Origin: Ginglymostoma cirratum
Taxonomy: Eukaryota
Assembly: GCA_024137785.1 (NCBI GenBank)
Contig: JAHRHZ010000027.1
Location: 226,368 to 278,234, forward strand
Direction: 5' to 3'
DNA length: 51,867 nt
Below are positions 11,426 through 38,760 of this stretch, piece after piece; the stretch's first letter is position 1, and each line of letters starts with the position of its first letter. Made by a program: the position numbers and the translations under genes. The notes below the pieces were generated by a model, which ran no database searches, was not told the origin of the DNA, and saw only the letters and a program-made list of their open reading frames with translations.

Positions 11426-11462
11426 ATGTGGAGCCTGATTCTACTCATTTATTTGGTGCCCG
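11426..11462 (+). CDS. Copy A exon 1: signal peptide MWSLILLIYLVP
   Basis: AAAATG start, hydrophobic stretch, phase-1 donor G|GTGAGT. Confidence 0.85.
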
Positions 11463-14368
11463 GTGAGTGACAGCACAAGCTGGATATTTTGGACAGTCTG
11501 TATTGGCTTACGCCTCGTGTACCTGCTATTCAACCGTGATGTTTAAATAGTCAGGGACACGCATAGGCACAGAATACTCAGGAAAAATGATTGGGTGAAG
11601 TCTTGCATCTATTTTATCTAAACTACTTCATCTCAGAAATATTTACCAATATGCAGTAACGTATATTGTTCATGGTTAATTTTAAATAGAGGTTCTCATT
11701 TAGTTTGTCTCAAGAGCCACCAACAAATTGGAAGAAATGTAACAGTAACACAATAGATTTGTGAAAAGTGAGCCTTTGCATGCATTTGCTATCCAATGGA
11801 AACTGAATGTTGCAGCGGTAATAACATCTCTAAGAGGGCATTCCCTGAGTTTTCAATTGTTTTTGCTCTTTCAAGAGCAGCTGTTGAAATATTGAGGCTC
11901 TTTCAATATCAATGCTCCTCGATGACACACATTTTACGCACAGTGCTCCATCAAGAAGGAATCTTTTCCTACCATTCTTTAGCTCCAAAGAAGTAAATTT
12001 GTCATTTTTGCATCCACTCCAAAGTAATCTTCTGAATTTAGCTTCAGTGAAATTTTTGATGCATAACATTCATGGAGGAACCTCAGAAATAGCAGAAGAA
12101 TTCAGCTCTTTGACCCCTTCAACAATGTGCCATCACTCAAAAACATTAAAGTTCCCTCAACACTACTTGCCTGAACAAGACCCATATCTCTGAACAAAAA
12201 ACATTCACTCACAGTTACACTGAATATACTTAAAGCTTGATTGTCACTCAATGGTTGGGAACCTTTCAAATTCTCTAACCAAGAGAGGCAAAGTTTCTCC
12301 TCAACTTCTTCCAAATGCCTGACTCCCATTTTTGAGACTGTGATACTGTGCTCCAGAATCTCCAGCCCTGTGAAATATATGTCCGACATGGGTCTAATCA
12401 AGCCCCCTGGGCTCTTTATATGTTTCAATGAGATCAACACTCATTCCTTTAATTCCTAGGGAAAATAGAACTGATCAGAGAATAATAGAATCATAGACGT
12501 CTAGAGCAAAGAAAAAGACCCTTTATACCATCGATCCTGCACCACTATATAAATAATTTTCCTTCAATTCCTTCCAAACTTCCTGATCTTACTTCAAGTC
12601 TACATCGTCTTCTACATCTGTTCCTCCATAATTTTATACATTTCAATCATGTCCCCTCTCAATCGCCATTGTACCAAGCAAACACACCTAATTTATCCAA
12701 TCTCTCGTCTTCAATAAATCTCACGTCTAAATTCAAACCTAAGGTGATGTATAGTCTACCGTCTAACTATTGGTGCAAAAAGTAGCAATAACTTTGGTTT
12801 GGGAGATGACGATGTAGGATCGGTTTGGATGGAGATGAGGAATAATTTGGATGAAGTGATCCCTTGTGGGAGTGATTTACAAATCCCCGAACACTTGCCA
12901 TGATGTAAGGGGCATTTAAGAAGAAATGAATGGCTGCTTGTGATAAAGGGATAGCAATAACTGTGAGTAATTTTTAACCTGTTTGATGAGGGGTTAGTTG
13001 AATATTTTTGAGACAGTCTCTTACAGCGACACATTCTCGAACCGACCAGATAGCTGGTATTTGGTATTGTCTGAATAGCAGTGACCACAATCTGATTGAA
13101 TTTTATATCACGTTTGAAAGGTAAAGGTATTGTTCAATTATATGGACATGATAGCTCAGCTTTCTGAAGTGAACTGGAATATAAGGTTCGCAAATAGATC
13201 AGTAATGAAGCTGTGACAGACACTGTCAATAATATTTCACAATACTGAGAATAAGGAGATGAGCACAAAAAATTCCAAATGGAGGACTTACCTTACCATG
13301 GTTCACTAAAGAAGTTGAGGAATGCATCAAACTACAGGAAAAAGAATATCAATGCACTAAGATGAATGGCACGTCAGATGACCTGTAACAATAGTGAGAA
13401 TGCCAGAAAATGACAAAAAGTTTAAACAGGACAAATCAATAAAAACATAAAAACAAGCAAGTCAAAAACTCTACAAATGGATAGCAAGAGTTTGAGCATC
13501 TATCTGGAAAGGAAAAGAATAAGTAAAGTGAGTGTTGGTGTCAAGAGATTGAGAATGCAGAGTTAATAGTAGATTGATGCTCTGAGCTCACCTTACGCAA
13601 CGATGAGAAAAGTCAAATCCCAGACTGAAATCTGATTTGGTAGATTTTCTTAACTTTTGGCTAATGCAGTGTTTAATCACTCAAGCAGAATCAGAGAAGA
13701 TTACTGAACTTTTAAAAGAATAGAACAAAAGTTTATGACAAAGAAAATGAAATTGAAAATGAAGGCAATCTATCCGGATTTACAGTTTCAAACAATCCTA
13801 AGACACACTGCAAAACAAAGTTTTCAACTGTTTTCCAACATTGTCAATTTACAGTGACTCAAGTCCAGAGAAATCTGCCATCCTGCTGACGTAAAGTAGC
13901 AGGCTAATACAATGTCATCCTGGACTGAATATAAAAGTGAGATCATTGTGCTTCAATGATGCAGCACATTGTCCCTGAGGGGTCACCATTTTAAAATTAG
14001 GGATCACCCTTTTTTAATACAGAGGTGGAGGAATTTTTTTCTCCAGAGAACTGGCTACCATAGAAGGAGATTGAGGTGGATAGATACTTGTGAGACAAGA
14101 ATCAAAGGTTATCGGGATAAATGGGAATGTGGGATTGGAACACAAATATAACGGCTGTAATCTTCTGGGTGGCTGAGCGGGTTTCAAGAACTGAATGCTC
14201 TGCTTCTGCTTTGTATTTCTAGACTATATCCTCAATTTATATGGTCATATGTTTGTTACAGGTATAGTGCAGCGTCTCCTGTGGGTGGAGGGGTAAAACT
14301 TATTAAGATGTATTTATTTGTATTAAGAGCTCAGATCTTTCTCAATTTCTGAAAAGTTGTCTCCCCAG

Positions 14369-14689
14369 CATCATCACATGTGTGAACAAAGGAGAAAGTA
14401 ACAGGAATTGTGGGAAGATCAATCACCATACCTTGTGAATATGACACATCGTTCAAGGACAACATGAAATACTGGTGTCATGGTTGGAGTACCTACTGCT
14501 CATATTTGGTGAGAACGACTGATCCAGATGGACAGCGAGAGAGAATGTCAATCCAAGATAACAAGACACAAGGAGTATTTGTTGTTACCATGGAGCATCT
14601 TCGCACGGAAGATGCAGGATGGTACAGCTGTGGTATTGATCGAGCAGGTAGAGATGAATTATCTGCTGTGGATCTCAAAGTATCACACG
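14369..14689 (+). CDS. Copy A exon 2: V-set Ig domain 1 (CD300/pIgR-like), contains TGA
   Basis: ctccccag acceptor; G.SITIPCEY..KYWCHGWSTYC...EDAGWYSCGI; extra C-C' Cys pair; donor G|GTACAT; 321 nt, phase 1-1. Confidence 0.93.
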
Positions 14690-17524: not shown

Positions 17525-17848
17525 AACCTGTGTCTGTTCCGATCATTCAATTTTTATCACCATCAAATATCTTGTGCTTTGAGAACTCAGTTTCTGTCTC
17601 CTGTGAGTCTGCCCAGGGATCTCTTCCCATTCAGTACACATGGTATGAAAAGACCCCGTCTAAAGACTCAAAGATCTCTCACACCAGTAAACTGGACCTA
17701 CATTGTCAATCCTTCAAACAGCAACAGCATCGATATTACTGCACAGCGTCAAATACTCAGGGAGAAAAGCTCAGTGAAATGGTTACAGTGTCAATCATCC
17801 ACAGATCAGAGAGCAACTGCAGTTTTGTGGCACAAATTGGGAGCCGTG
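17525..17848 (+). CDS. Copy A exon 3: C2-type Ig domain 1 (FCRL-like)
   Basis: tttctcacag acceptor; EPVSVP...SCESAQGSLPIQYTWY...YYCTASNTQGEKLSE; donor G|GTAAAT; 324 nt, phase 1-1. Confidence 0.93.
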
Positions 17849-18349
17849 GTAAATATTCGTTTAAGCTTCTTGAACTGTAGTTGTGTTTTTTCAATGAATG
17901 TCTGCATTAATCAGATACAAGATATCTTCTCCCTTGTGAATATGTTATTATCAAACCGAATGGCTTAATGTTCAAAAAGGAGTCAATTTAACGGCATATT
18001 CTTGAGTTAATAAAGGGTGAGACTGATTGTCACTAAACCTTTAAAATTCAGTGGCCTTCATCAGTGCCTCTCACTTTTGAACTGCTCTTCAGTGACCCTG
18101 AAATTGTGCTGTGTGACTACTTGCAAATCCTACATTAAGCTCCATTTTGGGCTTATTTTGTACAAATCCTATTGCTGGACAGATTTGACTGTTGCTGCCA
18201 AGCAACTCTTCAACTGAGTGCACACTGAAAGTTACATTTCTCAGAGAATGCTGTTTTCTCTGGTACAATTGGATGCACAGGAAATTGATTCCATCACACA
18301 CTGTATGAACAGATGTAGTGGAGAGATTCCTCTGTACTCAGTGGCAACT

Positions 18350-19085
18350 CAGAGAGTCATAACAGCACAGAAACAGACCCTTCGATACAACCAGTCTGTG
18401 ACGAGCATAATCCCAAACTAAACTAGTCCCACCTGCCTGCTCTTGGCCCATATCCTTCCAAACCTTTCCTATTCATACACTTCTCCAAATGTCTTTTAAA
18501 CGTTGTAATTGTACCCACATTCATCACTTCCTCATTCCACATGCGAACCACCCTCTGCGTAAAATATTTGTCTCTCCTGTCTTTTCTAAATCTCTCTCCT
18601 CTCACCATAACAATGTATTCCCTCATCTTAAGTCTCTCATCCTCGGGAAAAGATAATTACCATTAACTCTAGCTGTACCTCTCATTATTTTATGAACTTC
18701 CACAATCGTCTCAACCTCCTACAGTCCAGAGAAACAAGTCCCAGCCTTTCCAGCCTTTCTTTATAACGCAAACCTTCCATACCCAGCAACAAACTGGTAA
18801 ATTTCTTCTGAACCCTCTCCAGCTTGATAATATCCTTCTTTTAATTCAGTGACGAGAACTGGATACAACATCCAGAAGAGTCCTCACCAATGTCCCGTAC
18901 AGCGTCAACATGACCTCCCCTCCCAACTCCTGTACTCAAAGGACTGAGTAATGAAGGCAAGCGTGCCAAAAGCCTTTCTAACCACCCTGTCTATATGTGA
19001 CCCAAACTTCAAAGAATTATGTACCTGCCCCCCTCGGTCCCATTTGATCAAATCCCTTTGTAATCTCAGAAAAGCTTCTTCACCG
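18350..19085 (-). mobile_element. CR1-type LINE 3' fragment
   Basis: ORF 18423-18626 (FTQRVVRMWN, TFKRHLE) and CR1-like 3' UTR; host sequence resumes near 19820. Confidence 0.85.
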
Positions 19086-19094
19086 TCTTCTTTT

Positions 19095-19410
19095 TATTCA
19101 TTCATGGGATGTGGGTGTCAGGGGCTGGGCCACCATTTATGACCCATCCCTAATTTCCCACAGGGCAGTTAAGAGTCAATGACATTGCTTTGAATCTGGA
19201 GTCACACGTAGGCCAGCCCAGGTAAGGACAGCAGTTTCCTTCCCTAAAGGGCATTAGCGAACCAGATGGTTTTTTCCGAAAATTGGCAATGGGTTCTTGG
19301 GCATCATTGGACTCTTAATTCTAGATATTTACTGAATTCAAATTCTACCATCTACCACGGCAGGATTTGATCCCAAATCCCCAGAATGTTACCTGGGTGT
19401 CCGGATTACA
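19095..19410 (-). mobile_element. tRNA-derived SINE, reverse copy (family not assigned)
   Basis: Reverse complement of 19430-19775 (tctggagtcacacgtaggcc vs ggcctacatgtgactccaga). Confidence 0.75.
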
Positions 19411-19429
19411 AATGGCACAGGATGGGAGG

Positions 19430-19775
19430 CAATGACCTTGTGGTATTATCACTAGACTGTTAATCAAGAGACCTTGACAACACTCTGGGGATCTGGGTTC
19501 AAATCCTGCTAGGGCAGATGGCAGATGGTGGAATTTGAATTCAATGAAATATCTGGAATTAAGAATCTAATAATGACCATATATCAATTGTTCGGAAAAA
19601 CCCACCCGGTTCACTGATGTCCTTCAGGGAAGGAAAACTCCATCCTTACATGGACTGGCCTACATGTGACTCCAGACGCAGAGCACTGTGGTTGTCTCTG
19701 AACTTCCCTCTGGGTAATTAGGAATGGACAATAAATGCTGTCTAGCCAGCGACATCTTATCTTGCACTTGAATTA
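19430..19775 (+). mobile_element. tRNA-derived SINE, forward copy
   Basis: B-box GGTTCAAATCC at ~19496-19506 and aataaatgc 3' region. Confidence 0.75.
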
Positions 19776-20742
19776 TCAAAAAGTCCAGCAATAATATCAT
19801 GAGGCCATTCCCTCCCATCTGTGCCATCAATTTTGGTGCTGTCTGCAAACTTACTAATCATGCCCTCTGTATTCTCATCCAAATCATTTACATAAATGAC
19901 AAACAAATGAGGACCCAGAACTGATCCCTATGGAACACTGCTGGTCACAGGCCTCCAGTCCAGAAAGCAACCCTCCACCATTACTCTCTGTCTGCTGATA
20001 TTAAGGCCCATTATATATCCAATTGGCAAGCTCAACCTGAATCCTATGTGAACTAACTTTTCTAATTTGTCTACCATGTGGCACCTCATCAAAAGCTTTA
20101 ACAAAATGCAAATAAACATCTACTGCTCTGCAGTCTTTTTGGTAATTTCCTCAAAAAAATCAAGCAAGTTTGTGAGACACAATTATCCTTGCAGAAAACC
20201 ATACTGACGATCACCAATCAATTTTTGCTTCTTCAAATGTCCATACATTCTCTTTTTTTATAATCACCGCCAAAAATTTTCCTATAAATGAAGTTCAATT
20301 CACAGGTCTACAGTTCCACAGTTTCTCCTTACAACCTTTCTTAAACAAAGGTACAACATTAGCCACCCTCCAGTGATCAGGCACCTCACCTGTCGTTATC
20401 GATGATCAAATATTTCTGCAAGGAGTTTTGCAATTTCCTCCCTTACTTCCCACAACATTTTGGGATATATTACATCAGGTCCAGAGATTTAGCTACCTTC
20501 ATATTCTCTAAGACCTCCTGAACTTCCTCTTTTGTAATGTGAACTGTTTTTAAAACATCAAAAACATAAAACATTTCCTTCAACACATTTGACAAATTCC
20601 TCACTATCCGATCCTTAAACACTGTGGTAGTCCCAGTCAATGTTTGGAAATTTAAAATACCCCCATTTTTACAACCTTATTCTGTTTACATGTATCTGAG
20701 ATATCCCTACATATTTGTTTCTCAATTTCTCTCTTACTCAAA

Positions 20743-20995
20743 GTTTTTGAGTTCCTGCAGGCCTGGCACTCCAACCGGAACTGCATTAACAAACATGTAG
20801 AGCTGGACTCCATATACGAACCACTAAGAAACAAACTCGGAAATGATGCCATCGACCCCAGCAAACCGAGACACATAACTAACAGTGGGACAGAACACTG
20901 ACGCTTCACTGGAGGCGCACTGATGGTGTTACCTAGTATGGTGACGAAATGTTTGCAAACAAACTTACCAGCTCGGCGAGCAAGTCAACAATGGC
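20743..20995 (+). mobile_element. Penelope-like 3' terminal fragment (family 2), homologous to 305-550
   Basis: ttcctgcaggcctggcactc...aaacttaccagctc shared with the window start; hammerhead-like core at 20920-20953. Confidence 0.85.
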
Positions 20996-21259
20996 ATTCC
21001 CTCTTACTATTGGTGGGAGGGCCGATAGTGCAATCGCATCAAAGTGATCGTTCCTTTCTTATTTGTAATTTCTACCCATATATTTTCACTGAATGATTTT
21101 TCAGAAATATCTTCCCGAGTTACCGCAGTAATGTATTCCTTAAACAAAAACATTACCCCCACTTCGCCCCCCGTACCAATAAAACCCCCTTTCTTGCCTC
21201 CTTTCCTGTCCTTCCTATACAATCTCAAACCTGGAACATTGAGCTGCCAGTCTTGTTCA

Positions 21260-21650
21260 TCTCGAGCAGAGCGAGCGCGGACTGAGTCCTGGAAGCGAGT
21301 CACAGCCGGAGCACAGAGCGGGTGCAGATTGAGCCCAGGTCAGCCGGTGGGGGACGAGTCCGGGAGGGAGGACAGCAGATGGAGGCAGCGAAGCCTTGTG
21401 TTCTGAAGCCTGGTGGGGAAGGACTCAGTGAAAAGGAGGATAATTAGAGTACTTTATAGAAACCTTTTATTCTCATTCTGGACTTTTTAAACTTTGTATT
21501 CCCATGCCAGTCTTTTTTTCACTGTTTCAATTCTGTAACAATACTTGAACTATCTGCACCTCGGTATTCTGTACCGAAGATTGTGCCATGGTGCAACATT
21601 ACACACTTTTCACTGCAATCATTCGAGTGCACATGACAATAAACATTACT
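21260..21650 (+). mobile_element. Short non-autonomous retro-element nested in CR1 (family not assigned)
   Basis: GC-rich 5' part and LINE-like 3' end (...gcacatgacaataaa); interrupts continuous CR1 sequence. Confidence 0.5.
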
Positions 21651-22163
21651 GTACTTTATTCTCTCAGTCAAGTTTCTGTAATAGCTATGATGTCCCAATC
21701 CCATGTTTGTAAACATGCAGTTCATCAGCCTTACCTGTAAGACTCTTTGTAGTGTTGTTCTTCAGAGTTACTACATACTCTGGCTCTCCCTTGACTTTCT
21801 TTTCTCATTGACATGCTGCCCTCACATTCAGAGCCTGCTCCATCAATCCTTCCAGTGAGACTGCTCCTCAGAATTCCTCCACTCCCACTGTCTGTTAGTA
21901 TAAAGTCTCCCTTCATGGAGCGAGCAAATCTCCCTGCTAAGATATTTGTCCCCTTCCAGTTCAGCTTGGACCCATCCTTTTAAATCAGGTGTTTTCTATC
22001 TCAAAAGACATTCCAATTGTCCAGAAACCTGAATCCCTGAACAATACACCAGCTATTCAGCCGTTGGTTTATCTCCTCTATCCTTTTGTTCCTTCCCTTG
22101 TATGAAATGTACCTGATTGTATTGAGAGTTATTTTCTGTTTGAAGGACTCATTGTCTTTTCAG

Positions 22164-22472
22164 GTTCAACTGTAACGCCAGCAAAAAATAAAGTGACAGG
22201 AGTTTTGGGAAGAGCGATCACAATAGAATGTCACTATGACAAATGGTCACAATTATATGTGAAATTTTGGAGTCGCCAGTGCTCTGTTTTAGTAAAATCA
22301 AATGACCATCATGGACAGCAAGGAAGAATATCGATCATCGATAACAAGACACAAAATATATTTTCTGTTACAATGGAGGATCTTCGCTCAGATGATGCAG
22401 GATGGTACAGCTGTGGTATTGACCGATCTGGCCACATTTCAGTGTCTGCTGTCGAGCTACAAATATCTCACG
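22164..22472 (+). CDS. Copy A exon 4: V-set Ig domain 2 with 4-codon deletion
   Basis: tcttttcag acceptor; GRAITIECHY..KFW----SRQC...DDAGWYSCGI; donor G|GTATAT; 309 nt, phase 1-1. Confidence 0.93.
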
Positions 22473-22544
22473 GTATATTTCTCAGTGATATCGTTAATTA
22501 TTCTCTATTGAGATGTTTTATCGATGCTTTATCTGTGAGAGAAC

Positions 22545-23215
22545 ATAATCTCAAACTAGTCCCACCTGTTCCTGGTCCATATACCTCCAGATCGTTCCTG
22601 TTAATGTATCTAGCCAAATGCTTTTTAAACATTGTAATTGTACCCACATCCACCACTTCCTCAGGAAGTTCACTCCAGATGCGAACCACGCTCTGTCTAA
22701 AAATTTGCCTCTCCTGTCTTTTCTAACTCCCCCCCGCTCACCTTAAAAATGTGTCCCCTAGTCTTGAAATCCCTCACCCTCGGGAAAAGACAATTACCAT
22801 GAACTTGTCTGATCCTCATCATTTTACAAACTTCAATCAGGTCACCTCTCAACCTGCTACACTTCAGGGAAAAAAGTCCCAGTCTATCCAGCCTTTCTTC
22901 ACAACTCAAACCTTCCATGCCTGGCAACATCCTGGTAAATCTCTTCTGAACCCTCTCCAGCTTGGCAATATCCTTCCTATCACTGCGCAATCAGAACTGG
23001 ACACAATATTCCAGAAGAGGCCTCACCAATGTCCTGTACAACCTCAATATGACTTCCCAACTCCTGTACTCAAAGGACTGAGCAATGAAGACAAGTGTGC
23101 CAAACGCCTTTTTCACAACCCTGTCTCTATGTGATGCAAACTTTGAAGAATTATGTACCTGCACCCCAGGTCCCTCTGTTCTACAACACTACCCAAGGCC
23201 CTACAATTAATTGTA
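22545..23215 (-). mobile_element. CR1-type LINE 3' fragment
   Basis: KDIAKLERVQKRFTRMLPGMEGLS..LRGDLIEV, WSELPEEVV. Confidence 0.9.
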
Positions 23216-23893
23216 ACCTCTCAGATCTGAGCAAGTCCCCTGAAGAGGAAGAGCCAGGCTCCAGTCTGGGACAGGTTTTCAGTCCTGAGACAGACAGATC
23301 GGGCTCTCGGATGTGTTATAATCAGTTATTCTGAGACTTTTTCAGCAGATTTCCTGCCAACAACCTGTTTGCTGGTTTTAATCTAGCTCAGTGATATCAC
23401 TTTTGGGGAATGGCCATGCACTGTCTTTAGTAGAATATCACTCTGACCTCGATCGAACAGCAGATTGGATTATTACACATTACTTCATAGCACATTGCTT
23501 TATAACTAAGGCACACGATTGCCTCTTGCAAAACAATCTGGATCAAATTAGATTACGTACATTATAAATTCCGCTGATGTGAAGGACAATCACTGAAACA
23601 CTGCACATTCTGTGGTGATCACATGTGAACTTGTAGGACACAAGGAGAACCTGGTTAGCTCCTCCCATGAGTTGTCCTCAGAATGTATCTGGTCACCGAT
23701 GTGTTCTGATTACTCTCTTTACAGATAAAAGGGAAAATGTAACTCCACACCAATTCACTCCAATGGAACAGTCATCTAACTTCATAAACTCAGTTACTGA
23801 TTGCACTGAAGTGCTCATCTCAGTCAAATAAGCACATTTGAACATCTCACAGGCATCAAACTTCTTTAAGTCTAAAATAGGTTGCTGTAAAGT

Positions 23894-23980
23894 AAACCCT
23901 AACCCTAATGACAGCTCTAATCCTATCCCCAACCCTAATCCCAACCCCAAGCCCAACACTAACTCTCACCCTGACCCTAA
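23894..23980. repeat. Degenerate (CCCTAA)n telomere-like hexamer tract
   Basis: aaccctaaccctaa...aaccctaatcccaaccccaagcccaacactaactctcaccctgaccctaa, 6-bp period. Confidence 0.75.
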
Positions 23981-24620
23981 TATTGGGCAGCATTCAATTC
24001 AGTGAAAACATGAAACTCAAAATATTATGGCTTCAACATATTGAACCTGGGCACATTGAAGTAGCCAGTAAACCCGACACAAGATCCATTTATGCAGCAT
24101 TGCGAGGTTTCAGAACCCCAGAAACGCTAATTCTCATCTCCCTCTGAATTTTTGAGTTAAAATATTCTTTTCAGTTGCAGTCAAGTGGGACAAAGCACAT
24201 TTATACTCCCTGTATAAGGCCTGAAAAGTTGTAACAGATATCTGACAATTTATTCTCTTTTACTGCTCCATTTTAGTGTAAGGCTCTCTCCAACAGCTTT
24301 CCATTTGGGAATGAAACGATTAGCCAGCTAAAGGCTTGGAATCCGGCTATCAGCTACTGATAGAAAATATAGGCTCTGATTTCCACATTGACACATGCCC
24401 AGTGTCATTGCATTTGTCCTGATTTAGAGCCTTCCCGTGTTCTGTTATAATAGTAGACATGGGAATTCACATTACTGGGAGGCTGGAGAGACATGGACAG
24501 GTCGACACGTTTGGGATATTTGAACATACACACCCTGGATGAGATGTGGAAATGTTGGAAATAGGAACAGTGTTTAAATGCTGCTCAGGCAGTGTCTGAA
24601 TGTCTGCTTCTTTTCCACAG

Positions 24621-24947
24621 AACCTGTCTCTGTTCCTGTACTTAAATTTTTATCATCTCCACCAAATGCCTCATGTTCTGGAAGCTCATTGACAATCTCC
24701 TGTGAATCGGTCCACGGATCCCTCCCCATTCAGTACACATGGTATGAAAAGACCCTGTCTGAAGATTCAAAGATCTCTCACACCAGTAAACTGGATCTGC
24801 ATTGTCAATCCTTCACACAGCAACATCATCGATATTACTGCACAGCGTCAAATACTCAGGGAGAAGAATCCAGTGAAATTGTTAATGTTTCAGTCATCCA
24901 CAGATCAGAGGAGAACTGCAGTTATGTAGCACATATCAGCACCAGTG
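24621..24947 (+). CDS. Copy A exon 5: C2-type Ig domain 2 (FCRL-like)
   Basis: ttttccacag acceptor; EPVSVPVL...SCESVHGSLPIQYTWY...YYCTASN; donor G|GTAAGC; 327 nt, phase 1-1. Confidence 0.93.
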
Positions 24948-24980
24948 GTAAGCTATACTGTAAACAAACAATATAATTGC

Positions 24981-25080
24981 TGAGATAACAAGGTGTAGAG
25001 CTGGATGAGCACAGCAGGCCAAGCAGCATCAGAAGAGCAGGAAAGCTGATGTTTCAGTTCTGGACTCTTCTTCAGAAAAT
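24981..25080 (-). mobile_element. Short Penelope terminal-repeat element (family 1), degenerate hammerhead at 25048-25075
   Basis: gagataacaaggtgtagagctggatg...tgatgtttcagttctggactcttcttcagaaa. Confidence 0.8.
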
Positions 25081-25689
25081 TCAATATATCCATCAGTGGC
25101 ATGACGTTATGTTCCATGGTCATAGCACACAGTTACGTTATCCTCTACCCACAGAGGTAACAAATGACACGTGGAGGGTATTAGTCCTGGTCCTGCTGGT
25201 TCACAACTGGCCAACTTGTACAGATTCCGTCTTCTCCAGAATGGGATACACTGCCTCCAGAGTCTAAATCCTTCTCTCCCCACAATCAGGCAGCTGAGCC
25301 GCTCCTGGTGCCATGGATTTGGCTGTCACTACATTCTTCAGAGAACACATCTCCCCAGCAGTGTCCAAAAGGGAATGTCTATGGCAACAGGATACATTGC
25401 TGATTTGTCAAAGCAAAATCTTCCAGAAAGCTAGATGCGGGTTATATTCCTGCAGTCAGTCTGAAAAATTGCATCTGGGCAAATTTACAGTATCTGGTCT
25501 TTCAGTAGATCTGAGCAAGATCACTTAGTTGAATATTAAAAAGATTATAAAATATCCCAAAAATATGGATAACATTTGCAGACATTACAGTAACCCCTGA
25601 ACAGTAAAACGTGATTGCATTGACTGAGTCTAAAGCATTAACAGCCCTTTGTTGCTAAAGTTTCTTCACTCCTGCAATGCAGAAAATCA

Positions 25690-25950
25690 ATCTGTACAGC
25701 GCCAATTCCCACAGGCAGCAATGTGAAAATAACACGATAATTTACTTTTAATTGGGGGATAAATATTATTCAGGGCACTTGGAATACCTATACTCCTCTT
25801 CTTCAAGACAATGCCATGGGTCAAGCAGAGTTGGCAGATGTAGTCTCAGTTTAACATCTCATCGACGAAGGTAGCACTGCCAACACTGCAGCACTCCTTC
25901 ACCAACGCATTGAACCAATTGCATTCAGGTTTATGCTCAAGCCTTGGCCC
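25690..25950 (-). mobile_element. Old SINE relic (Deu-domain/SacSINE1-like)
   Basis: tctcagtttaacatctcatcgacgaaggtagcactgccaacactgcagcactcc resembles the reverse of the Deu-SINE core as recalled; needs a library search. Confidence 0.45.
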
Positions 25951-26242
25951 TGATGTAAGTAATTATAGGGGATGTCAGGATTGGAGTCCATTGATAGGCT
26001 CAAATAGGTAATGCTGTATTACCATCTGTAAGAAATGGGAAACAATTAGAAACTGCCATGAAAGATTAGTCACTGGCAGTTCAGAGTGGGATTGTTCTGG
26101 TAGTGGGGCTGTGGGGATGACACAGAGATTACACCTTCCAAATCCATTATATCAGCTAAAGCTTCCATTTGACAATGTTGCTGTTTTGGTTAACTAGAGT
26201 AAAAACGAGGTTAATCTGAAAGTTATTCATTTGTTTCAACAG

Positions 26243-26321
26243 GAGCTGATTACCGTTCTGAAACTTCATCAGTATCGGTGACAACTACAAATTCAAAAGT
26301 CATGCCTCAACTTGATATAAG
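26243..26321 (+). CDS. Copy A exon 6: Ser/Thr-rich stalk (GADYRSETSSVSVTTTNSKVMPQLDI)
   Basis: tttcaacag acceptor, AG|GTACAA donor; phase 1 in and phase 2 out, exactly bridging exon 5 to the TM exon. Confidence 0.75.
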
Positions 26322-26929
26322 GTACAATTATCACATCGTTAGGGTTTGACACCTTCCACATGAGTGATTAAATCCTCTTGAACAATGTCTTGTTAATCAT
26401 GAAGGAAATTATTTCTTATTTCTCAATGTAGATCCCAGAATGGAAATGGGGCCGGACTGACATCAGGCTGTAGCATTAGCTTCTTAACAAAGTGTGCTAT
26501 GTGCACTTATCAGTTTGGTGTGGAACTAATGGAAAAGTTGTTCTTATGTGGGTGAAAATGAGAAATTACATCAATAAATCTGCTCTGCCTTGGTGGTATC
26601 ACTTATGAGGAACATCTTGCAACTTTGGTCAAGTTTGCAGTGAGGAGGCCTTCTTCTTGATGGTATTCCCATTGAGGTGTGAAGAAATATCAGACACAGA
26701 ACACTGTAGGGGCACAGATAGAATCATAGAATCATACAACATGGAAACAGATTCTTAGATCCAACTCATCCACAGTGACCAGACAGCCCAATCTGACCCA
26801 GTCCCAATTGCCAGCAATTGGCCCATATCCCTACTAAACCCCACCTATTCATATACTCATCCAGATGCTTTTTAAATGCTGTTATGTATCACCTCACCCA
26901 AGTAAATCAAAATATAACATGAGTCCATA

Positions 26930-27620
26930 TTTGCCATGTTGGGATTGTTTAAAGACCTGCTGATGAGAGTTCAAGACTGGCATGTTTCAGTAAGGAGGAA
27001 GGATAAGATTGACAAAGTAAGGGACCCTTGCATCATGAGGGAGGTTGTGAATTTATTCAAAGGGAAAAAGAAGCTTATGTAAGGTCTAGCATTCTAAAAT
27101 TTGACAGGGTCCATGTGGAATATAAAGAAAGGAGGAAAGAACTCTAGGAGGGTATTAGGAGTGTAAGAATGGTCCATAGAATGACCTTGGACAGTAGGGT
27201 TAAAGAGAATCCCAAGTCATTCTGTAGATTAGTTAAAAACAAGAGGATAAGTGGGGAGAAGTTAGGAATACTCAACGATAAAGGAGGGAGCTTCCGCTTC
27301 GAGGCAAAGAATGTGTGTTACATCCTAAATGAGCATTTTGCATCAGTATTCACTCAGGAAAAGGATATGGAGGATAGAGAGATTTGTGTTGAGCATGCTC
27401 ATAATCTAGGGCATTTTGAGATCAAGAAAGAAATGGTGTTGAATCTCTTGATGATTCCACTAAAGTGGGTAAGTCCCCAGGGCCTAACGGTATGTACTCC
27501 AGGTTATTGAGAGAAGCAAGAGAGGAAATTTCAAGGGCCTCGACCAAGATCTTTATATCCTCACTAGCCACTGAAGAGGGCCTGGAGAATAGCTAATGAT
27601 GTTCCTCTGTTCAAGACGTT
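26930..27620 (+). mobile_element. CR1-type LINE internal fragment
   Basis: RVKENPKSF...ILNEHFASVFTQE motif. Confidence 0.85.
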
Positions 27621-28209
27621 TTCAGAAGATGTCCTGTCACCAACCTATTTGCTGGTTGTCTGGCCTGCTGACACCATTTGACAAGATTGTGCACGTAATA
27701 TCTGGAGCTAGGATATCAGTTTGATCTTGTGTAAACAGCAGATAGGTAACCAATATGCCTCTAGCAGGTGAAATTATGAATTGCAATCTCAGACTAAAGG
27801 GAACGATGTCAGACGTTGAGAACTGAAGTGTTGAAGTTACAAGGACAGGCAAAGTGCAGATTTTAACAGATACACACATAGAACCTTCAAAGAACATCAT
27901 CTTAAATGGACAGCTGCTGGTCTCCATGCACACCTTTGACAAAGGGAATTTACCTGTGAAGCACTTTGAGTTTTCCTGAGTTTGTGGAATGTTTTGTATC
28001 AATGCGCATTATCATTCCAATTCAAAACAAACTCGAGATTAAAATATATCGAAGGCAATGATCTGAGCGCTCACTAGAGAAGGCCGCCCGATTCCTGCCT
28101 GCAACAAGAATCGTTAAAATAAAATATTCAGTAAATCCACTGCTGCTGAGTGACGATTCCTGAGTGAGATGATTTACTTCTGGAAGCAAAGTTGTCTTGT
28201 TGCAATTTT

Positions 28210-28545
28210 ATGGGTCCTCGGTGAGACCATAGCTGGAGTATTACGCACAGTATTGGTCACTTTCCCTGAGGAAAAATGCACTTGCCTTAGAGAGAGTGCA
28301 ACAAAGGTTCACCAAATGAATTCCTGGGATGGAAGGATTATCCTCTGAAGAAAGATTAAATAAACCAGGATTATATTCTCTTTAGTTTCAAAAAATCTCA
28401 TACAGACACACAAAGTATTTCTAGGGTTCAACAGGGTAGATGTGGGAAGATGTTACTAATGGCTGTTGGGTTTAGAACAAAAGAAAACAATCTTAGAATA
28501 AGGGGCAGGCCATTTCAGACAGAGATAAGGAGGAATATTTTCACT
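28210..28545 (+). mobile_element. CR1-type LINE 3' fragment (old)
   Basis: ggtgagaccatagctggagtatt...ttagagagagtgcaacaaaggttcacc (RP.LEY..LERVQ.RFT). Confidence 0.7.
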
Positions 28546-29391
28546 TCAACTTTGATATTGACTAACCATTATAAATTGATGCTGCTGTTTCTGTTAGCGT
28601 TGCATTGCAATAACAATAAATGAAGAGATAAATCAGAAAGGTTTATCAGCATGATGACGTTAGAAATTTCTTATTTCAGATGATAATTTATCAGGACAGT
28701 TGGGTTTACACAATGTTGTTAGTTTCCTAACAAAGCTGCGATTTTTGTTGATAGGAATTGAAAATAAGAATTCAGTGCTTTGTGTTTGCCACCTCTCAGA
28801 GGTTTTCATTATCCATGTTGCTCCTTCACAATTCACCAAATCCCATGGAGTTGTACTCGTCACACTTCAACAATCATTGATCCTGTGCTTTCTGCAGTAT
28901 CACTACCAGGGACATTACATTCTCTGTCATCTTCTCCTCCTCCGTTCTCTCACGTTATCCATTATTCCCAATCTGAGAGGGTGAAAGGCAGTCTGGTTCC
29001 AGCTGGTTAAGACTTACCTGTTAGAAGGTGCAAGGAGCAGTGTGCGATGATGTCATTCTCAGTTCCTCGCTCACTGAAGACACATCTCATCATTGTAATA
29101 TTGCACAGGCCGCAGTGCCTCCCGCAAATATCGAACGACGTCTATTAATCCTTGTGTATATCATTGTGCTGAGCATTACAGGGTGTGCTTCTCAAACTTG
29201 TTTCATTAATCTTCATTGAAAGATCAAAATAAACTAAACTGAAATTTGTTTTTCATGCTTAAGTCTCTTATTGTGCTATTTTCCTTTACTTTAACATATT
29301 GAGATGACAGTGCAAACAGGGAATAATTGTTTAAAACGTGAAGTAGTCTTGTTTCCATCAAATAATTTTGTGTGTCTTCCCTTTTACACAG

Positions 29392-29482
29392 TTACGTTGC
29401 CTGGAATATGATACGATGGGTGCTCTTCACTCTCCTTGTGATTTCAGCTGTTTCAGTTACATTACACACTCGAAAACATAAG
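29392..29482 (+). CDS. Copy A exon 7: transmembrane segment with charged Arg (SYVAWNMIRWVLFTLLVISAVSVTLHTRKHK)
   Basis: cttttacacag acceptor (phase 2), hydrophobic run followed by basic RKHK, AAG|GTGAGG donor. Confidence 0.85.
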
Positions 29483-30390
29483 GTGAGGATTACAGACTCT
29501 ATAAGAACCATTTTGAGCACTTTGCAAATACTCCATCAATTATATCCCACTCCATAGGTGTTTGGAAACAGGGAACACAGTTTCATTATAAGGGATAGTC
29601 CTTTTAAGGACCAGAAGAGGAGGAATTTCCTCACTCAGAGGGGGTCAGACTTTGAATTCTCTTCCCCTGAGGACGATAGAAGCTGAATCATTGAGAAAGT
29701 TTCAGACAGAAATTGCTAGAATTCCAGGTACTAGAATTTCTAGTGAAGTGAAAAGATACGGGGAAATTTCAGTGATATAATGTTTAAGTAACCGATCAAC
29801 CATGATGTAGTTAAATTGTGGATTCTGCTTGAGGGCAGAATGCCAGTCTCCTGGGTACATTTTCTGTGTTTCTTTGACCAGATTTCAAACACATTATTCA
29901 GAGATATTTTAAACAATATGAACCTTTCATTGCTGTCTGGATGAAACAATGTTATTTGCAGAGAGTATGAATTTTTTTTCAAAATGTGTGTAATTTCGAT
30001 AAAATAAAGTAGATTACTTGTGGGCAGTGTCTGGCTTCTTGATCCTTATTGAAGCAGCATCCATCCAGAAATGATTGGATCCCTTAATCCAGAATACCTC
30101 TCAATCAATCAATTTTCACTTTATCACTGAAAGGACCTATCACATAATGTCTGCAGTCCCTGTCATGACATCAAGATATTTAAAGCGCTTGAAGTTCATT
30201 GGAGTTATTTGCAGTTCTTTAGATGCTCCATTCAGACATCATAAGACTCAATGCAGAATAATTTTGACAAATGACTGAAAGTCTCCCAAAATCAATGAAC
30301 GTTCTTCTAACAGAATGTATCCAATCTATTTTTATGACTTCAATATGTTCCATCTACTTTAAATTTCCTGGATTTATTTGCATTATGCAG

Positions 30391-30441
30391 GCGTCATGGC
30401 GGAGAATTTGTAAGCAGCTGAATAGCCAGACAATCTGTTGA
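30391..30441 (+). CDS. Copy A putative last exon: short cytoplasmic tail ASWRRICKQLNSQTIC*
   Basis: tttgcattatgcag acceptor, phase 0, AATAAA ~250 nt downstream. Alternative acceptors exist (~30461, ~31505). Confidence 0.5.
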   Translation, partial: ASWRRICKQLNSQTIC

Positions 30442-30687
30442 GAACATTTTTGTTTTTCAGACAGTATCCTGGCATTTTTCATCTTCCCCAGAACAAACAG
30501 CTAGAACTTTCCGTTAATCCATCACCTGACAGAAGATTAGGACTGTACGATGTTGGATTGTCAGTCAGAATGAACGAACCAAACTGTGGAAGATTGAGTT
30601 CATTCTGGGCAAGCGTGAATTCATCCACTTTGAATCTGAGAAAGACAAACCAGATCACTTCTCATTCATGAGATGGCATGAAGGAAT

Positions 30688-30693
30688 AATAAA
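30688..30693 (+). terminator. Candidate polyadenylation signal of copy A
   Basis: First AATAAA I found after the putative stop codon. Confidence 0.35.
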
Positions 30694-32834
30694 CCTCCGT
30701 GTGTCCACAAATCATAAAAATTAGTTGTGCAGACACAGAAACTAATGGAGAAAGTTAATGGAATGTTGGACTTTATTTCAAATAGAGAGGAAGTGATGTC
30801 TCAGTTATGTAGAGCCTACTGGAAATTCTGTTTTGGCAGCAAAACCCAGAAAAGAAATGCTCACCTGGGGAAGGATACAAGTATTTCTAAAATTCTGTTT
30901 CAAGGGGACATTGTTGACATTTGAAAAGGTGAATGAAATGTTGACCTTTATTCCAAGAAGATTGAAATTCAAAGCTGTAGATTTTGTATGGAGACATGGT
31001 GAGCCCCTGTTGAGATTTACAGAGATGAGATCATCGAGTATTGGGAAAGATTATAAAGTGGCATGGGCCCGTGACTGGAAAATGAGGGTGAGCGGAAGAT
31101 CAGTCCAATCTCATCCAATTGGTTGGTGCAACAGGCTCGAGGAGTCGAATGAGCTACTCCTGTGCTCGCTTTCTATCAAAGTTATCCAATGCAGAACCCT
31201 CTCGTCTTCTAGTCTAGTTATCAATCAGTCAAAATATGGAAAAGAAAGAATTGGGAAAGGGTAAAAGGGCATAGGTCCAGCGTACATTTGTATAAAATGA
31301 ATTTGATAGAGTAGCTATTTCAATCTATCTCTGCTGCCATTGTTCACCTTCTCAGCTGCAGGGAAACATTAACTACTTGTGACAAAGTGGCATTCAAATA
31401 CCAAATATTTTCATCCATATTTCAACGGCGATGCAGAGGGCTGTGTGATCTAGACACAGGTACAGTTTATCACAAGCTTCACCTCAAATTTTTTCCTTTT
31501 CCAGAATTTTGAACAGAGATAACATGTAAAATAAGGTACCATTCTCCATCTCAAGAAACCCAGCGTTTTTTTTTATTTCCCCAGTTACTGAATGGACACA
31601 TTTGAACAGAGTGGGAAATGAAAATTCTCTGCGACTTCAACATGGTCTGGAATTTCCCAATCTGATGGAATATGAATTTTTTTACCTCACTTTGAACATT
31701 TATTTTTCTAATTCTACAAAATGAAATTTTGTTATTTAATTATTTTGGCGATTACATTCGAGGACAAGAACCAAAATCTGAACCTCTGAGGTCTATATCT
31801 ACATCTGGTTAATGCTGATGCGTGTGCCAATGTGTTGTGCACAGTTAAACTCCTTGCTCAATGTTCTTTGATATAATTTGTGCCCAATAGAAGGTGAATC
31901 TTCAAGAAATGAGCAATTTGAATGATTTGTTCACTGGAAATCAGTGACACCAATGAATTGTTTTATTTTCACGTGGGATAGATCAATGTTCATTTTTAAC
32001 AGGAGAATGGGAGACCCTCCTGTATAAATAGGAAAGTGGGTGGAATTTTTTTCTCCCTGGAACAATGTGGGAAACAGCGAGAATTTGGGAAAATATGGCA
32101 AAAATGAGAAATCAGAGTCTCCTGTCAAGAAACAATTTTCTGATTATTCCTTTCAGTATTAAACTAAATGATCAGAATTTTGATATTGAGTGGCATTTGT
32201 GTCTCATTAAGAGGCAAACTTTCCAATTTATTGGATGATCTCATATACATGATCTCATCTCTGAAATCCCTTCCATTTCTCCTCCTCACCCTTCCCCACC
32301 TCCCCCCTGCCCTGCCAACCCGATCCCTGAAACTAGACAGTGCGAATTCACAACATGCAAATTACAGCAACGAACTGGCAGCTGCAACTTGTGGATCGAT
32401 TGTCTCAAACTTCACTGAAGGTTTGGTTAGTAATGTTTCCAGGATATATCAGGGAAGTCTGAGGGAAGCTATCAAGTCAAGACTTTTTGTTCGACAGCAT
32501 CGCTGAGGCAATGATTACAGTGAAAACAGGCGTTTTGAGATAAAAGGGACTGAGAGGGGACAAATAAGCAGTATAAGGTTTCTGCTAATCACAAGTACAT
32601 ACCTGAAGTCAGAATATGTACTTACAGTTAGAAAATGAGATCATGTTGTGATATGATTGGATAATATAATCACATGTACAAATTTGAATATGAGTAGATA
32701 ATAAACTTAATGTAGTATTGTGTACTAACTGGGAAAGCAAGTAAGGTTAGAAAGAGTTGTGGGTTGGTAAATGTGTAACTGCTCAATTGGAAATTATAAT
32801 TTGGAGAAAGTGTTGTTTGGAAGCTTGTTGTGTG

Positions 32835-35180: not shown

Positions 35181-35805
35181 AAGGGTCAGACTGGCAGAAA
35201 GAAAAATCAAGCAGCATGCCTCAATTTGCCCACGGAAGCAACATGTCTCTCCCTGGCCTTACACTTATCCCCAGAACAACAAAGGTATCTACATCAAGCT
35301 CTGACTTATTGATTTCAGCTCCACCTTCAACACTATAATTCCAACAAATCCATCTCCAAACTCCAGGACATAGGTCCCCCTTCCCCCCAGCTGTAACTGG
35401 ATACTTGACTTCCTGCCCATCAGACCACAGTCAGTAACGATAGGCAACATCACATCCCCCACAGTATTCCTCAACACCGGAGCACAGCAAGGCTGAGTAC
35501 ACAGCCCCCTATTGCAATCCTTACGCACACACAACTGCGTGACCAAATTGCAGACCAACTCCAATTACAGGTTTGCTGACAATACGACCATTCTACATGA
35601 GATCTCAAAGGGAACAAGGCAGAGAACAGGAAGGAGGCAACGTTCTTAATGTCTTGGTGTAAAGACAAAATAATGTCTTCAACAAAGACAACAAATGGAT
35701 GGAACTGAGATAGTCGGCACTGCCGATGCAGGAGAATCTGAGATAAAACGTTGTGGAGCTGGATGAAAACAACAGGCCAAGCAGCATCGGAGGAGCAGGA
35801 AAGTT

Positions 35806-35833
35806 GATGTTTCGGGTCGAGACCCTTCTTCAG
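35806..35833 (-). ncRNA. Minimal hammerhead core in the inverted PLE terminus (helix III variant)
   Basis: Reverse CTGAAGA-A-GGGTC-TC-GACCC-GAAAC-ATC. Confidence 0.6.
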
Positions 35834-38258
35834 AAATGGGGGAGGGGAAGGGGATTCTGAAATAAATAGGGAGAGAGGGGGAGGCGGATAGAAGATGGAT
35901 AAAGGAGAAGATAGGTTGAGAGGAGACAGTCAGGTCAAAGAGGTGGGGTTAGAACCAGTGAAGGTGAATGCAGTTGGGGATTTAGGTGGGGGATAGGTCA
36001 GTCCAGGGAGGATGGACAGGTCAAGGAGGCGGGATGAGGTTAGTGTGTAGGAGATGGGGGGGTGGGGGGTGCTTGAGGTGGGAGGAATGGTTAGGGAGTG
36101 GGGACTGGCTGGGCTGGTTTTGGGATGTCGTCGGGGGAGGGGAGATTTTGAAGCTTGTGAAGTCCACATTGATACCCTTAGGTTGCAGGGTTCCCAAGCG
36201 AAATATGAGATGCTGTTCCTGCAGCTTTCGGGTGGCATCATTGGGGCAACGCAGGAGGCCCAGGATGGACATGTCGTCCGAGGAGTGGAGGGGGAGGGGG
36301 GGGGGGCGGCGAGTTGAAATGGTTCGCGACTGGGTGGTATAGTTGTTTGTTGCGAACTGAGCTTAGGTGTTCCGCAAAGCGGTCCGCAAACCTCCTTCCC
36401 AAAATCCACAAACCTGACTGCCCTGGCCGACCCATTGTCTCCGCCTGCTCCTGCCCCACTGAACTTATTTCCACCTATCTGGACTCCATTTTCTCCCCCT
36501 TGAGCCAGGACCTCCCTACCTACATCCGTGACACCACCCACACTCTTCACCTCCTCCAGAACTTCCAATTCCCCAGGCCCCAACATCTCATTTTTACCAT
36601 AGATGTGCAGTCCCTATACACCTGCATTCCCCATGCTGATGGCCTAAAGGCCCTCTGCTTCTTCTTGTCCCGCAGGCCCGACCAGTCCCCCTCCCCGACA
36701 CCCTCATCCGCTTAGCTGAACTCGTCCTCACACTCAACAACTTCTCTTTCAATTCCTCCCACTTCCTACAGACAAAGGGGGTGGCCATGGGTGCCTGCAT
36801 GGGCCCAAGCTATGCCTGCCTCTTTGTAGGATACATGGAACAATCCCTCTTCCAAAACTACACTGGTCCTATCCCCCATGTCTTCCTCCGTTACATTGAT
36901 GACTGTTTTGGCGCTGCTTTGTGCTCCCATGAGAAGCTGGAACAGTTCATCCACTTCACCAACACCTTCCACCCCAACCTTAAGTTTACCTGGACCATCT
37001 CTAATACCTCTCTCTCCTTCCTGGACATCTCTGTCTCCATCTCTGGCCTCCACCTGGAAACCGATATCCATTTTAAGCCTACCGGCTCCCACAACTACCT
37101 AGAATACACCTCCTCCCACCCACCTTCCTGTAAAAAGGCCATCCCCTATTCCCAATTCCTTCGCCTCTGCCGCATCTGCTCCTGAGATGAGGCATTCCAC
37201 TCCCGAACATCCCGGATGTCCTCGTTTTTCAAGGACCGCAACTTCCCCTCCACAGTGATCGAAAATGCCCTTGACCGTGTCTCCCGCATTTCCCGCAACT
37301 CATCCTCCACACCCCCTACCCGCTATAATAACCAAAACAGAATCCCTTTCGTCCTCACGTACCACCCCACCAACCTCCAGATCCAACGCATCATCCTCCG
37401 ACATTTCCGCCATCTGCAATCTGACCCCATTACTGAAGACATTTTTCCATTCCCACCCTTATCTGCTTTCCGGAGGGACCACTCCCTCTGCGACTCCCTT
37501 GTCTGCTCCACACACCCCTCTAGCCCTACCCCCCCTGACACTTTTCCCTGCAACCGAAGCAAATGCTACACCTGCCCCTACACCTCCCCCCTTACCCCCA
37601 TCCCAGGCCTCAAGAAGACCTTCCACATCAAACAGATGTTCACCTGCACATCTGCTAATGTGGTATCCTGCATCCGCTGTTCCCGTTGTGGCCTCCTCTA
37701 CATCGGGGAAACCAAGCGGAGGCTTGGGGATCGCATTGCAGAACACCTACACTCAGTTCGCAACAAACAACTACACCTCCCAGTCGTGAACCATTTCAAC
37801 TCGCGCCCCCCACTCCTCGGACGACATGTCCATCCTGGGCCTCCTGCGTTGCCACAATGATGCCACCCGAAAGCTGCAGGAACAGCATCTCATATTTCGC
37901 TTGGGAACCCTGCAACCCAAGGGTATCAATGTGGACTTCACAAGCTTCAAAATCTCCCCTCCCCCGACGACATCCCAAAACCAGCCCAGCTTATCCCCAC
38001 CTCCCTAACCATTCCTCCCACCTCAAGCCCCACCCCCATCTCCTACACACGAACCTCATCCCGCCTCCTTGACCTGTCCGTCCTCCCTGGACTGACCTAT
38101 CCCCCATATAAATCACCACCTACATTCACCTTCACTGGTTCTAACCCCGCCTCTTTGACCTGTCTGTCTCCTCTCAACCTACCTTCTCCTTTATCCATCT
38201 TCTATCCGCCTCCCCCCTCTCCCTATTTATTTCAGAATCCCCATCCCCTCCCCCATTT

Positions 38259-38286
38259 CTGAAGAAGGGTCTCGACCCGAAACGTC
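38259..38286 (+). ncRNA. Minimal type I hammerhead ribozyme core (intact)
   Basis: CTGAAGA-A-GGGTC-TC-GACCC-GAAAC-GTC: conserved core, perfect stem II, palindromic ACGT helix III, GUC cleavage triplet. Confidence 0.7.
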
Positions 38287-38760
38287 AACTTTCCTGCTCC
38301 TCCGATGCTGCTTGGCCTGCTGTGTTCATCCAGCTCCACAACGTTTTAGCTTAAATGGATGGAATTGTTCATTGACTTCAGGAAGCGGATTGAAGGGTAC
38401 GCCCCTGTCCGCATCAATGGTGCTGAGGTGGAGATGGTCGCGAGAGTCAAACTCCTTGGGGTGATGATTACCAAACTTCTGTCCTGGTCCATCCGTGTTG
38501 GCACTACATGCAATAAAGCACTGCAACATCTCTAATTCCTCAGGAGGCTAAAAAAACCCCAGCATATCCATAAAGATTTTCACAAATTTTTACAGATGCA
38601 CCAAATAAATTATATAATGTGGATGCATCACAACATGGTGTGGCAACTGCTCTTCCGAAGGCTGAAAGAAACTACAGAGAGTTGTGAACACAGCCCAGTC
38701 CATGGAGCAAACCAGCTTCCTGTCCATTGACTTCATCCATACTTCTCGCTGCCTCAGGAA

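What the first reader, a model, noticed from the sequence alone, without database searches (positions are those of the whole stretch)
29392..30441. Transmembrane NxxR arginine and tyrosine-motif-free tail: FcR-gamma-type activating receptor
Seen: the TM starts YVAWNMIRWVLF with Arg at the outer face, followed by a ~22-aa tail with no ITIM/ITAM (the alternative endings I read also lack them). Known: an outer-face NxxR (e.g. YTVENLIR) mediates FcR-gamma pairing in LILRA, FCAR, GP6 and NKp46, whereas activating CD300/TREM typically use a mid-membrane Lys with DAP12. Inference: a CD300-like ectodomain wired to an LRC-style signalling module, predicting an inhibitory ITIM-bearing sibling in the cluster.
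Basis: partly seen in the sequence, partly recalled or inferred. Interest (0 to 1): 0.7.

Follow-up and report, generated by a model that had tools for sequence, protein, structure and literature searches.

The report
Shark activating MDIR paired immune receptor
This is the membrane anchor of a shark immune-receptor gene from a family already known in skates; its conserved arginine and short tail mean it likely signals through an activating partner protein, it has a 92%-identical 'brake' twin nearby, and this genome's copy carries an early stop codon, so it is a real but ordinary member of a known kind.

Summary
The TM exon (29392-29482, YVAWNMIRW...) and the tyrosine-free short tail are real, but the tail exon seen spliced starts at 30461, not 30391. 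The gene is an 8-exon leader-V-C-V-C-stalk-TM-tail member of the cartilaginous-fish MDIR family; skate MDIR5 has the same architecture, Arg-TM and short tail. Arg is present in 40 of 40 homologous TM segments, Asn at -3 in only 5 of 40, so the family motif is W-x-V-[GI]-R-W and 'NxxR' is partly coincidence. The predicted ITIM sibling exists: an intact 614-aa gene about 110 kb away, 92% identical in the ectodomain. Likeness to inhibitory siblings stops at ~26,916, so the gene is a mosaic (exchange or conversion). Coupling to FcR-gamma is inferred, not tested: FcR-gamma exists in catshark, ray and chimaera but was not found in this assembly; CD247 was. This scan noted the same family before on other shark genomes.

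The parts
11426..11462 (+). leader exon (ATG, 37 nt, phase 1)
   Evidence: joint 11462->14357 in X1, X2 and 1 read of X9
14357..14689 (+). V1 exon, CD300/pIgR-like V-set domain
   Evidence: Pfam V-set 8e-13; best PDB sequence hits pIgR, CD300f, CD300a; joints
14383..14385 (+). in-frame TGA, codon 22 (TGG in the three paralogs read); apparent segregating null allele
   Evidence: two 60-nt contigs differing at 14385 in X4 and X5
17525..17848 (+). C1 exon, C2/I-type Ig domain
   Evidence: joints 14689->17525 and 17848->22164
22164..22472 (+). V2 exon (lacks one Cys of the extra V-domain pair)
   Evidence: loose end at 22472 reading into the C2 exon
24621..24947 (+). C2 exon, membrane-proximal Ig domain
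26243..26321 (+). Ser/Thr-rich stalk exon, shifts phase 1 to 2
   Evidence: joint 24947->26243 in X1, X2 and 2 reads of X9; stalk-to-TM joint inferred from phase and from homolog P0034, not among the joints shown
26916..28887 (.). interval where likeness switches from the inhibitory siblings to the activating siblings
29392..29482 (+). TM exon with W-N-M-I-R-W (Arg codon CGA at 29414-29416) and basic stop-transfer
30461..30517 (+). last coding exon, 18 residues, no Tyr; no copy in the 448 kb of cluster held
   Evidence: joint 29482->30461 in X1

Best explanation
This is the TM and tail of an MDIR-family (CD300/pIgR-like V plus C2 domain) receptor gene that is likely the activating half of a receptor pair and is predicted to signal through a zeta/gamma-class adaptor, most likely FcR-gamma. 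Shown: gene structure, family, conserved Arg, Tyr-free tail, an intact ITIM sibling with a 92% identical ectodomain, a sharp switch of ancestry between stalk and TM, and a stop at codon 22 in this assembly. Inferred: the Arg in the outer third of the helix pairs with the Asp pair of an FcR-gamma dimer (about 0.6) or a CD247 dimer or heterodimer (about 0.2), so ligand binding would trigger ITAM/Syk signalling, while the sibling that likely binds the same ligand would recruit SHP phosphatases. The ectodomains are likely kept alike by gene conversion or unequal exchange. The assembled haplotype would make no full-length receptor; other individuals likely carry an intact allele.
For: 107 homologs, all named from cartilaginous fish, include skate MDIR3 and MDIR5; MDIR5 is V-C-V-C with WKVGRW and a 21-aa Tyr-free tail. 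Arg 40 of 40 and following Trp 40 of 40 with Arg and Asn columns masked. In this genome the Arg is lost (TGC, TGC, CAC) in the three TM exons that lie beside stop-bearing C exons and kept in the other four of seven read. Sibling C27:127022-145.2k: 9 exons, 614 aa, two ITIMs, 431 of 468 ectodomain residues identical; Ig exons 96-98% identical in DNA, 15 of 271 synonymous sites differ, while several intron kilobases are 75-86% or unalignable. Tree of the membrane-proximal C domain: activating/inhibitory label needs 16 changes, shuffled mean 16.1. Arg in the top half of the TM is the zeta/gamma assembly signature (PMC13107469 passage); Xenopus XFL2 with such a TM needs FcR-gamma for surface expression (PMC2413239 passages). 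FcR-gamma is on record in two catsharks, an electric ray and elephant shark. Spliced contigs join leader-V1-C1-V2, C2-stalk and TM-tail.
Against: No adaptor binding was tested. Five searches of this assembly (Pfam PF11628; gecko, gar, chimaera, catshark FcR-gamma) found only CD247; its usual neighbour NDUFS2 was also found only as one isolated piece, so a gap is likely but not shown. At -3 rays mostly have Lys and bamboo/epaulette sharks Asp, which may change adaptor choice. The stalk-to-TM joint was not among the joints shown, and X1 has an unspliced contig running across the TM acceptor (28868-29482). Upstream joints could come from the near-identical siblings. The assembled copy is a null. 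The runs with joints to the tail are contigs whose RNA status is not on record; raw RNA run X9 gave only 1-2 reads per upstream joint and none for TM-tail.
Confidence: 0.7

Rival explanations
1. Same receptor, but the adaptor is CD247 (zeta-zeta), the only zeta/gamma gene found in this assembly.
For: CD247 with the TM Asp is present at C32:158.7k; NKp46 and NKp30 use zeta-zeta or zeta-gamma through a top-half Arg; FcR-gamma not found here in five searches.
Against: FcR-gamma is on record in four other cartilaginous fish and the searches also missed NDUFS2, an essential gene. CD300-like receptors are mostly myeloid, where FcR-gamma is the usual chain (own knowledge).
Confidence: 0.2
2. The gene is a fixed or dying pseudogene; the TM motif is a remnant without function in this species.
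For: TGA at codon 22 in the assembly and in contigs of X4 and X5; many neighbours are broken; the non-stop form in X4/X5 could come from paralogs that are identical over those 60 nt except at 14385.
Against: It is the only stop in 518 codons and all splice sites are canonical. X1 and X2 show only V1 contigs with two differences from the window (one at 14463, one unlisted; X1's gene-specific intron contig fits to 14384 and not at 14385), closer to this gene than to any paralog, and spliced to C1. Contigs show presence, not absence.
Confidence: 0.15
3. The TM exon descends from the same ancestral NxxR module as LRC, Xenopus FCRL and SLAM receptors and was shuffled onto a CD300/pIgR ectodomain.
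Against: Asn in 5 of 40 across the family; no DYT start, no acidic C-end; Trp at -4 (38 of 40) and +1 (40 of 40) are family-specific. A 30-residue hydrophobic segment cannot show homology; no PDB or Pfam match. I could not align LRC TM sequences, as none were held.
Confidence: 0.2
4. The Arg pairs with DAP12/DAP10, or works without an adaptor (snorkelling, homodimer or trafficking signal).
For: NKG2D uses Arg with DAP10; adaptor choice in CD300 receptors does not follow the residue strictly; XFL1.7 reached the surface without FcR-gamma.
Against: DAP12 partners use a central Lys; macaque activating KIR with a TM Arg bind FcR-gamma and not DAP12 (PMC8102735 abstract). Strict confinement of the Arg to short-tailed forms argues for a partner.
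Confidence: 0.1

Closest known systems
Modular domain immune-type receptors (MDIR) of clearnose skate; MDIR5 = P0055, MDIR3 = P0061 (Cannon et al. 2006, PMID 16738934, not readable here)
   Same: V-C-V-C ectodomain, 63% identity in the C domain, Arg-Trp TM, about 21-aa Tyr-free tail (MDIR5); ITIM-bearing siblings (MDIR3); described as a multigene activating/inhibitory family in PMC3031540.
   Different: Asn rather than Lys at -3; a last exon with no copy in the cluster; a stop at codon 22 in this assembly.
LRC-type NxxR-TM receptors (LILRA2, PIR-A, NKp46, GPVI, OSCAR, FCAR) and Xenopus XFL TM1 receptors
   Same: Arg near the outer end of the TM, short tail, ITIM siblings; in this gene also Asn at -3.
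   Different: Ectodomain is V+C2 of the CD300/pIgR type; Asn not conserved in the family; no DYT start or acidic C-end; FcR-gamma binding shown for those, not for MDIR.
Mammalian CD300/CLM/LMIR paired receptors
   Same: V domain sequence (PDB hits to CD300f, CD300a); clustered activating and inhibitory forms; some activating members use FcR-gamma.
   Different: Four Ig domains instead of one; Arg near the outer face instead of a mid-membrane Lys; orthology and synteny not tested.
Macaque activating KIR3DS (recombinant of a KIR3D ectodomain with the KIR2DL4 TM/tail; PMC8102735 abstract)
   Same: Activating form made by joining an ectodomain shared with inhibitory genes to an Arg-bearing TM module.
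   Different: Unrelated ectodomain; there the adaptor was shown by co-precipitation; here the direction of exchange is not known.

Membership tests
MDIR (cartilaginous fish) | CD300/TREM/pIgR-like V domains | tested here: met
   Pfam V-set; 27 PDB sequence hits led by pIgR and CD300f
MDIR (cartilaginous fish) | modular V and C2 domain repeats, close sequence likeness to named MDIRs | tested here: met
   V-C-V-C; MDIR5 63% and MDIR3 62% identity to the C2 exon; MDIR5 architecture
MDIR (cartilaginous fish) | multigene family with activating and inhibitory forms | tested here: met
   both TM classes and ITIM exons in the cluster
MDIR (cartilaginous fish) | the exact definition in the original paper | not testable with these tools
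   paper not held; definition taken from passages of PMC3031540
LRC-type NxxR-TM class | Arg at the N-terminal end of the TM | tested here: met
   40 of 40
LRC-type NxxR-TM class | invariant Asn of NxxR | tested here: inconclusive
   present in this gene and 6 of 7 own exons but 5 of 40 in the family
LRC-type NxxR-TM class | DYT consensus at the start of the TM segment | tested here: not met
   S-Y-V here; Ser at -8 in 32 of 39, Thr at -6 in 0 of 39; feature from PMC6557307
LRC-type NxxR-TM class | acidic residue(s) at the C-end of the TM | tested here: not met
   ends VSVTLHTRKHK; feature from PMC6557307
LRC-type NxxR-TM class | association with FcR-gamma | not testable with these tools
CD300 (mammalian) | single V-type Ig ectodomain (recalled) | tested here: not met
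   four Ig exons spliced in series
CD300 (mammalian) | conserved synteny with the CD300 locus | not tested
   flanking genes of the cluster were not identified

The most novel reading that the evidence does not exclude
The outer-leaflet Arg/FcR-gamma signalling module dates from the first jawed vertebrates and was the activating module of the CD300/pIgR-like cluster before mammals moved to mid-membrane Lys; in sharks it is repeatedly swapped onto inhibitory ectodomains, giving KIR-like pairs with segregating null alleles, and signals through a two-ITAM FcR-gamma.
Probability: 0.3. Interest if true: 0.5.

Novelty: new member of a known kind. Interest (0 to 1): 0.27.

Why it matters
Modestly. 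It adds a clean example of paired-receptor evolution in a shark: an activating and an inhibitory gene with 92% identical ectodomains, a mappable switch point and an apparent null allele. It gives a ready test pair for which adaptor cartilaginous-fish innate receptors use; my nine library searches found no such test for MDIRs, but the founding MDIR paper could not be read. The family, the Arg-TM and the paired layout are already known.

Tried and rejected
Direct C2-to-TM splicing: gives a stop after six codons; rejected once the 79-nt stalk exon was found. Conserved block 28887-29052 as an exon: it maps to the stalk-TM intron of activating paralogs; treated as intron. Last exon at 30391: not among the 15 joints shown; 30461 was. 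Stop at codon 22 as an assembly error: rejected, the stop form stands in contigs of X4 and X5 (that study may be the assembly's source). 'Sharks lack FcR-gamma, so the partner must be CD247': suggested by PMC4016189 (passages), (all 14 named cartilaginous-fish hits among 93 were CD247) and by own-genome searches; rejected (3 of 10 representatives looked up were cartilaginous-fish FcR-gamma-like chains; 10 of the 150 listed were looked up). FcR-gamma profile over 200 kb around the NDUFS2-like piece on C62: nothing. DAP10 family search: no clean hit; DAP12 was not searched. TM exon against PDB and Pfam: no match. Complex prediction of the TM with a zeta dimer: not available, no verdict. No listed holder of the stretch is on record as RNA; run X10 laid 2 reads; neither is evidence. 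ESM Atlas look-up gave taxa only to phylum. The crude ITIM-type count held false positives and is not used. Look-ups of earlier findings by place and by sequence returned nothing.

Full report
Observation. The exon at 29392-29482 is bounded by AG and GT and encodes YVAWNMIRWVLFTLLVISAVSVTLHTRKHK. It enters in phase 2, so the upstream Ig exon (phase 1) cannot join it directly; a 79-nt stalk exon at 26243-26321 supplies the shift. With leader 11426-11462, V1 14357-14689, C1 17525-17848, V2 22164-22472, C2 24621-24947 and a last exon from 30461, all eight exons have canonical ends and give 518 codons. The Arg lies at position 7 of the best 21- or 23-residue hydrophobic window and the tail is 23 residues without Tyr.

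Transcripts. Four runs were laid on 11200-30800. X1 and X2 are not on record as RNA but hold spliced forms. Upstream joints could come from siblings; the last exon has no copy in the 448 kb held.

Codon 22 is TGA (14383-14385); the three paralogs read have TGG. In X4 and X5 two 60-nt contigs cover 14356-14415, one identical to the window and one with a single other letter, and neighbouring contigs end at 14384 and restart at 14386, so the stop is real; the other letter is not printed and that form could come from a paralog. In X1 and X2 the only V1 contigs differ from the window at two places, one listed (14463) and one not; X1's gene-specific intron contig fits up to 14384 and not at its last letter. 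These contigs are closer to this gene than to either paralog and splice to C1. The simplest reading is a segregating null allele; contigs cannot prove absence of the stop form.

Family. The C2 exon finds 107 longer proteins, all named from sharks and rays, among them skate MDIR5 and MDIR3. MDIR5 is V-C-V-C with SYISWKVGRW and a 21-residue tail. PMC3031540 (passages) describes MDIRs as a multigene activating/inhibitory family like CD300, TREM and pIgR; the founding paper (PMID 16738934) was not held, so I saw nothing of it but its citation. V1 matches pIgR and CD300 structures by sequence. Cluster tails are 92% like a zebra-shark and 87% like a whale-shark protein, so the genome is probably a carpet shark's.

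The motif. I scanned all 107 proteins with the TM segment while masking the Arg and Asn columns; 40 segments from 38 proteins scored 46 or more and the next scored 29. Arg stood in 40 of 40, Trp at +1 in 40 of 40, Trp at -4 in 38 of 40, Asn at -3 in 5 of 40 (Lys 17, Asp 12, Ser 4, Met 2). These are mostly predicted gene models and are related, so not independent. In this genome 6 of 7 exons read have Asn, and the Arg is lost in the three beside broken C exons. PMC6557307 (passages) lists a DYT start and acidic C-end as further marks of the LRC NxxR-TM; both are absent. So the segment works like that class by anatomy but is not filed in it.

The pair. About 350 kb of C27 and 100 kb of C28 were read. 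Four ITIM-type last exons were found. The gene at C27:127022-145.2k has the same six ectodomain exons, an uncharged-type TM, 614 open codons and two ITIMs; 431 of 468 ectodomain residues match. Its Ig exons are 96-98% identical in DNA, with 15 of 271 synonymous and 27 of 974 non-synonymous sites differing, while several intron kilobases are 75-86% alike or do not align. The stalk and its flanks are 95-97% like a second inhibitory gene (C27:85-112k) up to 26,916, where likeness stops; from 28,887 the DNA is about 70% like activating paralogs, and the TM exon 75-83%. A tree of 49 membrane-proximal C domains (10 own, 39 of the 107 homologs chosen for one clear terminal TM; 1 row unlabelled) needs 16 changes of the activating/inhibitory label, as many as shuffled labels (16.1), and joins this gene with its two inhibitory siblings at 97/87. 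This fits repeated exchange of modules or conversion of ectodomains; the direction is not determined.

Adaptor. Established: a top-half Arg marks zeta/gamma partners and a central Lys DAP12 partners (PMC13107469 passages); Xenopus XFL2 needs FcR-gamma (PMC2413239 passages); macaque Arg-KIRs bind FcR-gamma, not DAP12 (PMC8102735 abstract). The contrast is not strict, since Lys-bearing LMIR8 is FcR-gamma-coupled (PMC5974347 introduction and passages). In this assembly five searches found only CD247, and PMC4016189 (passages) reported no gamma chain in sharks. A profile search of 1.84 billion representatives then gave divergent chains, and 3 of the 10 looked up were from elephant shark, electric ray and catshark. 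NDUFS2, the conserved neighbour of FCER1G (PMC4536121 passages), was also not properly found here, so a gap is likely. No binding was modelled or tested; FcR-gamma remains an inference.

Verdict. Real, well supported, and a new member of a known kind. Three earlier notes of this scan on other genomes reach the same family; my reading was written before seeing them, and they are not counted as support. Supplements were not read for any paper. Interest 0.27.

Noticed in passing
P0215, P0343, P0220, P0234: Cartilaginous fish do have FcR-gamma-like chains, against the statement in PMC4016189. The two catshark and the electric ray proteins carry two ITAM patterns (as do caecilian and frog), the chimaera one; gar, coelacanth and mammal examples have one.
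   Followed up: partly
window 44150-51867 (C27:270.5-278.2k): A 95-98% duplicate of the leader and V1 region with an intact Trp codon and a 2.2-kb insertion in intron 1; no C, TM or ITIM exon was found in the next 70 kb, so it looks truncated.
   Followed up: partly
G000:C27:15943, 30593, 171542, 79724: TM exons beside stop-bearing C exons, and one orphan TM piece, have lost the Arg (Cys or His codons), as expected from CpG decay after loss of function.
   Followed up: partly
G000:C27:140994-141082: The intact inhibitory sibling has an Asp in its TM where the second inhibitory sibling has Ala; effect unknown.
   Followed up: no
G000:C27:221395-225072 and C28:27.725-27.730M: Single-V CD300-like genes carry the same W-x-I-L-R-W TM (one with Asn at -3), so the Arg module is not limited to V-C MDIRs; the C27 one has a stop in its V exon.
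   Followed up: partly
G000:C27:112089-85226: The second V-C-V-C inhibitory sibling has its own stop (TAA) near the start of V1, two codons past the position of this gene's TGA.
   Followed up: no
G000:C62:42842954-42843046: The only NDUFS2-like piece found in the assembly is isolated and preceded by a stop; the true locus, the usual neighbour of FCER1G, may be missing.
   Followed up: partly
window 35741-38351: Two 92% identical copies of a GC-richer repeat with reverse-transcriptase- and endonuclease-like open frames (Penelope-like by recalled motifs).
   Followed up: no
G000:C278:24645 and 102515: Two V exons that look like TIM/HAVCR domains by recalled motifs, not MDIR.
   Followed up: no
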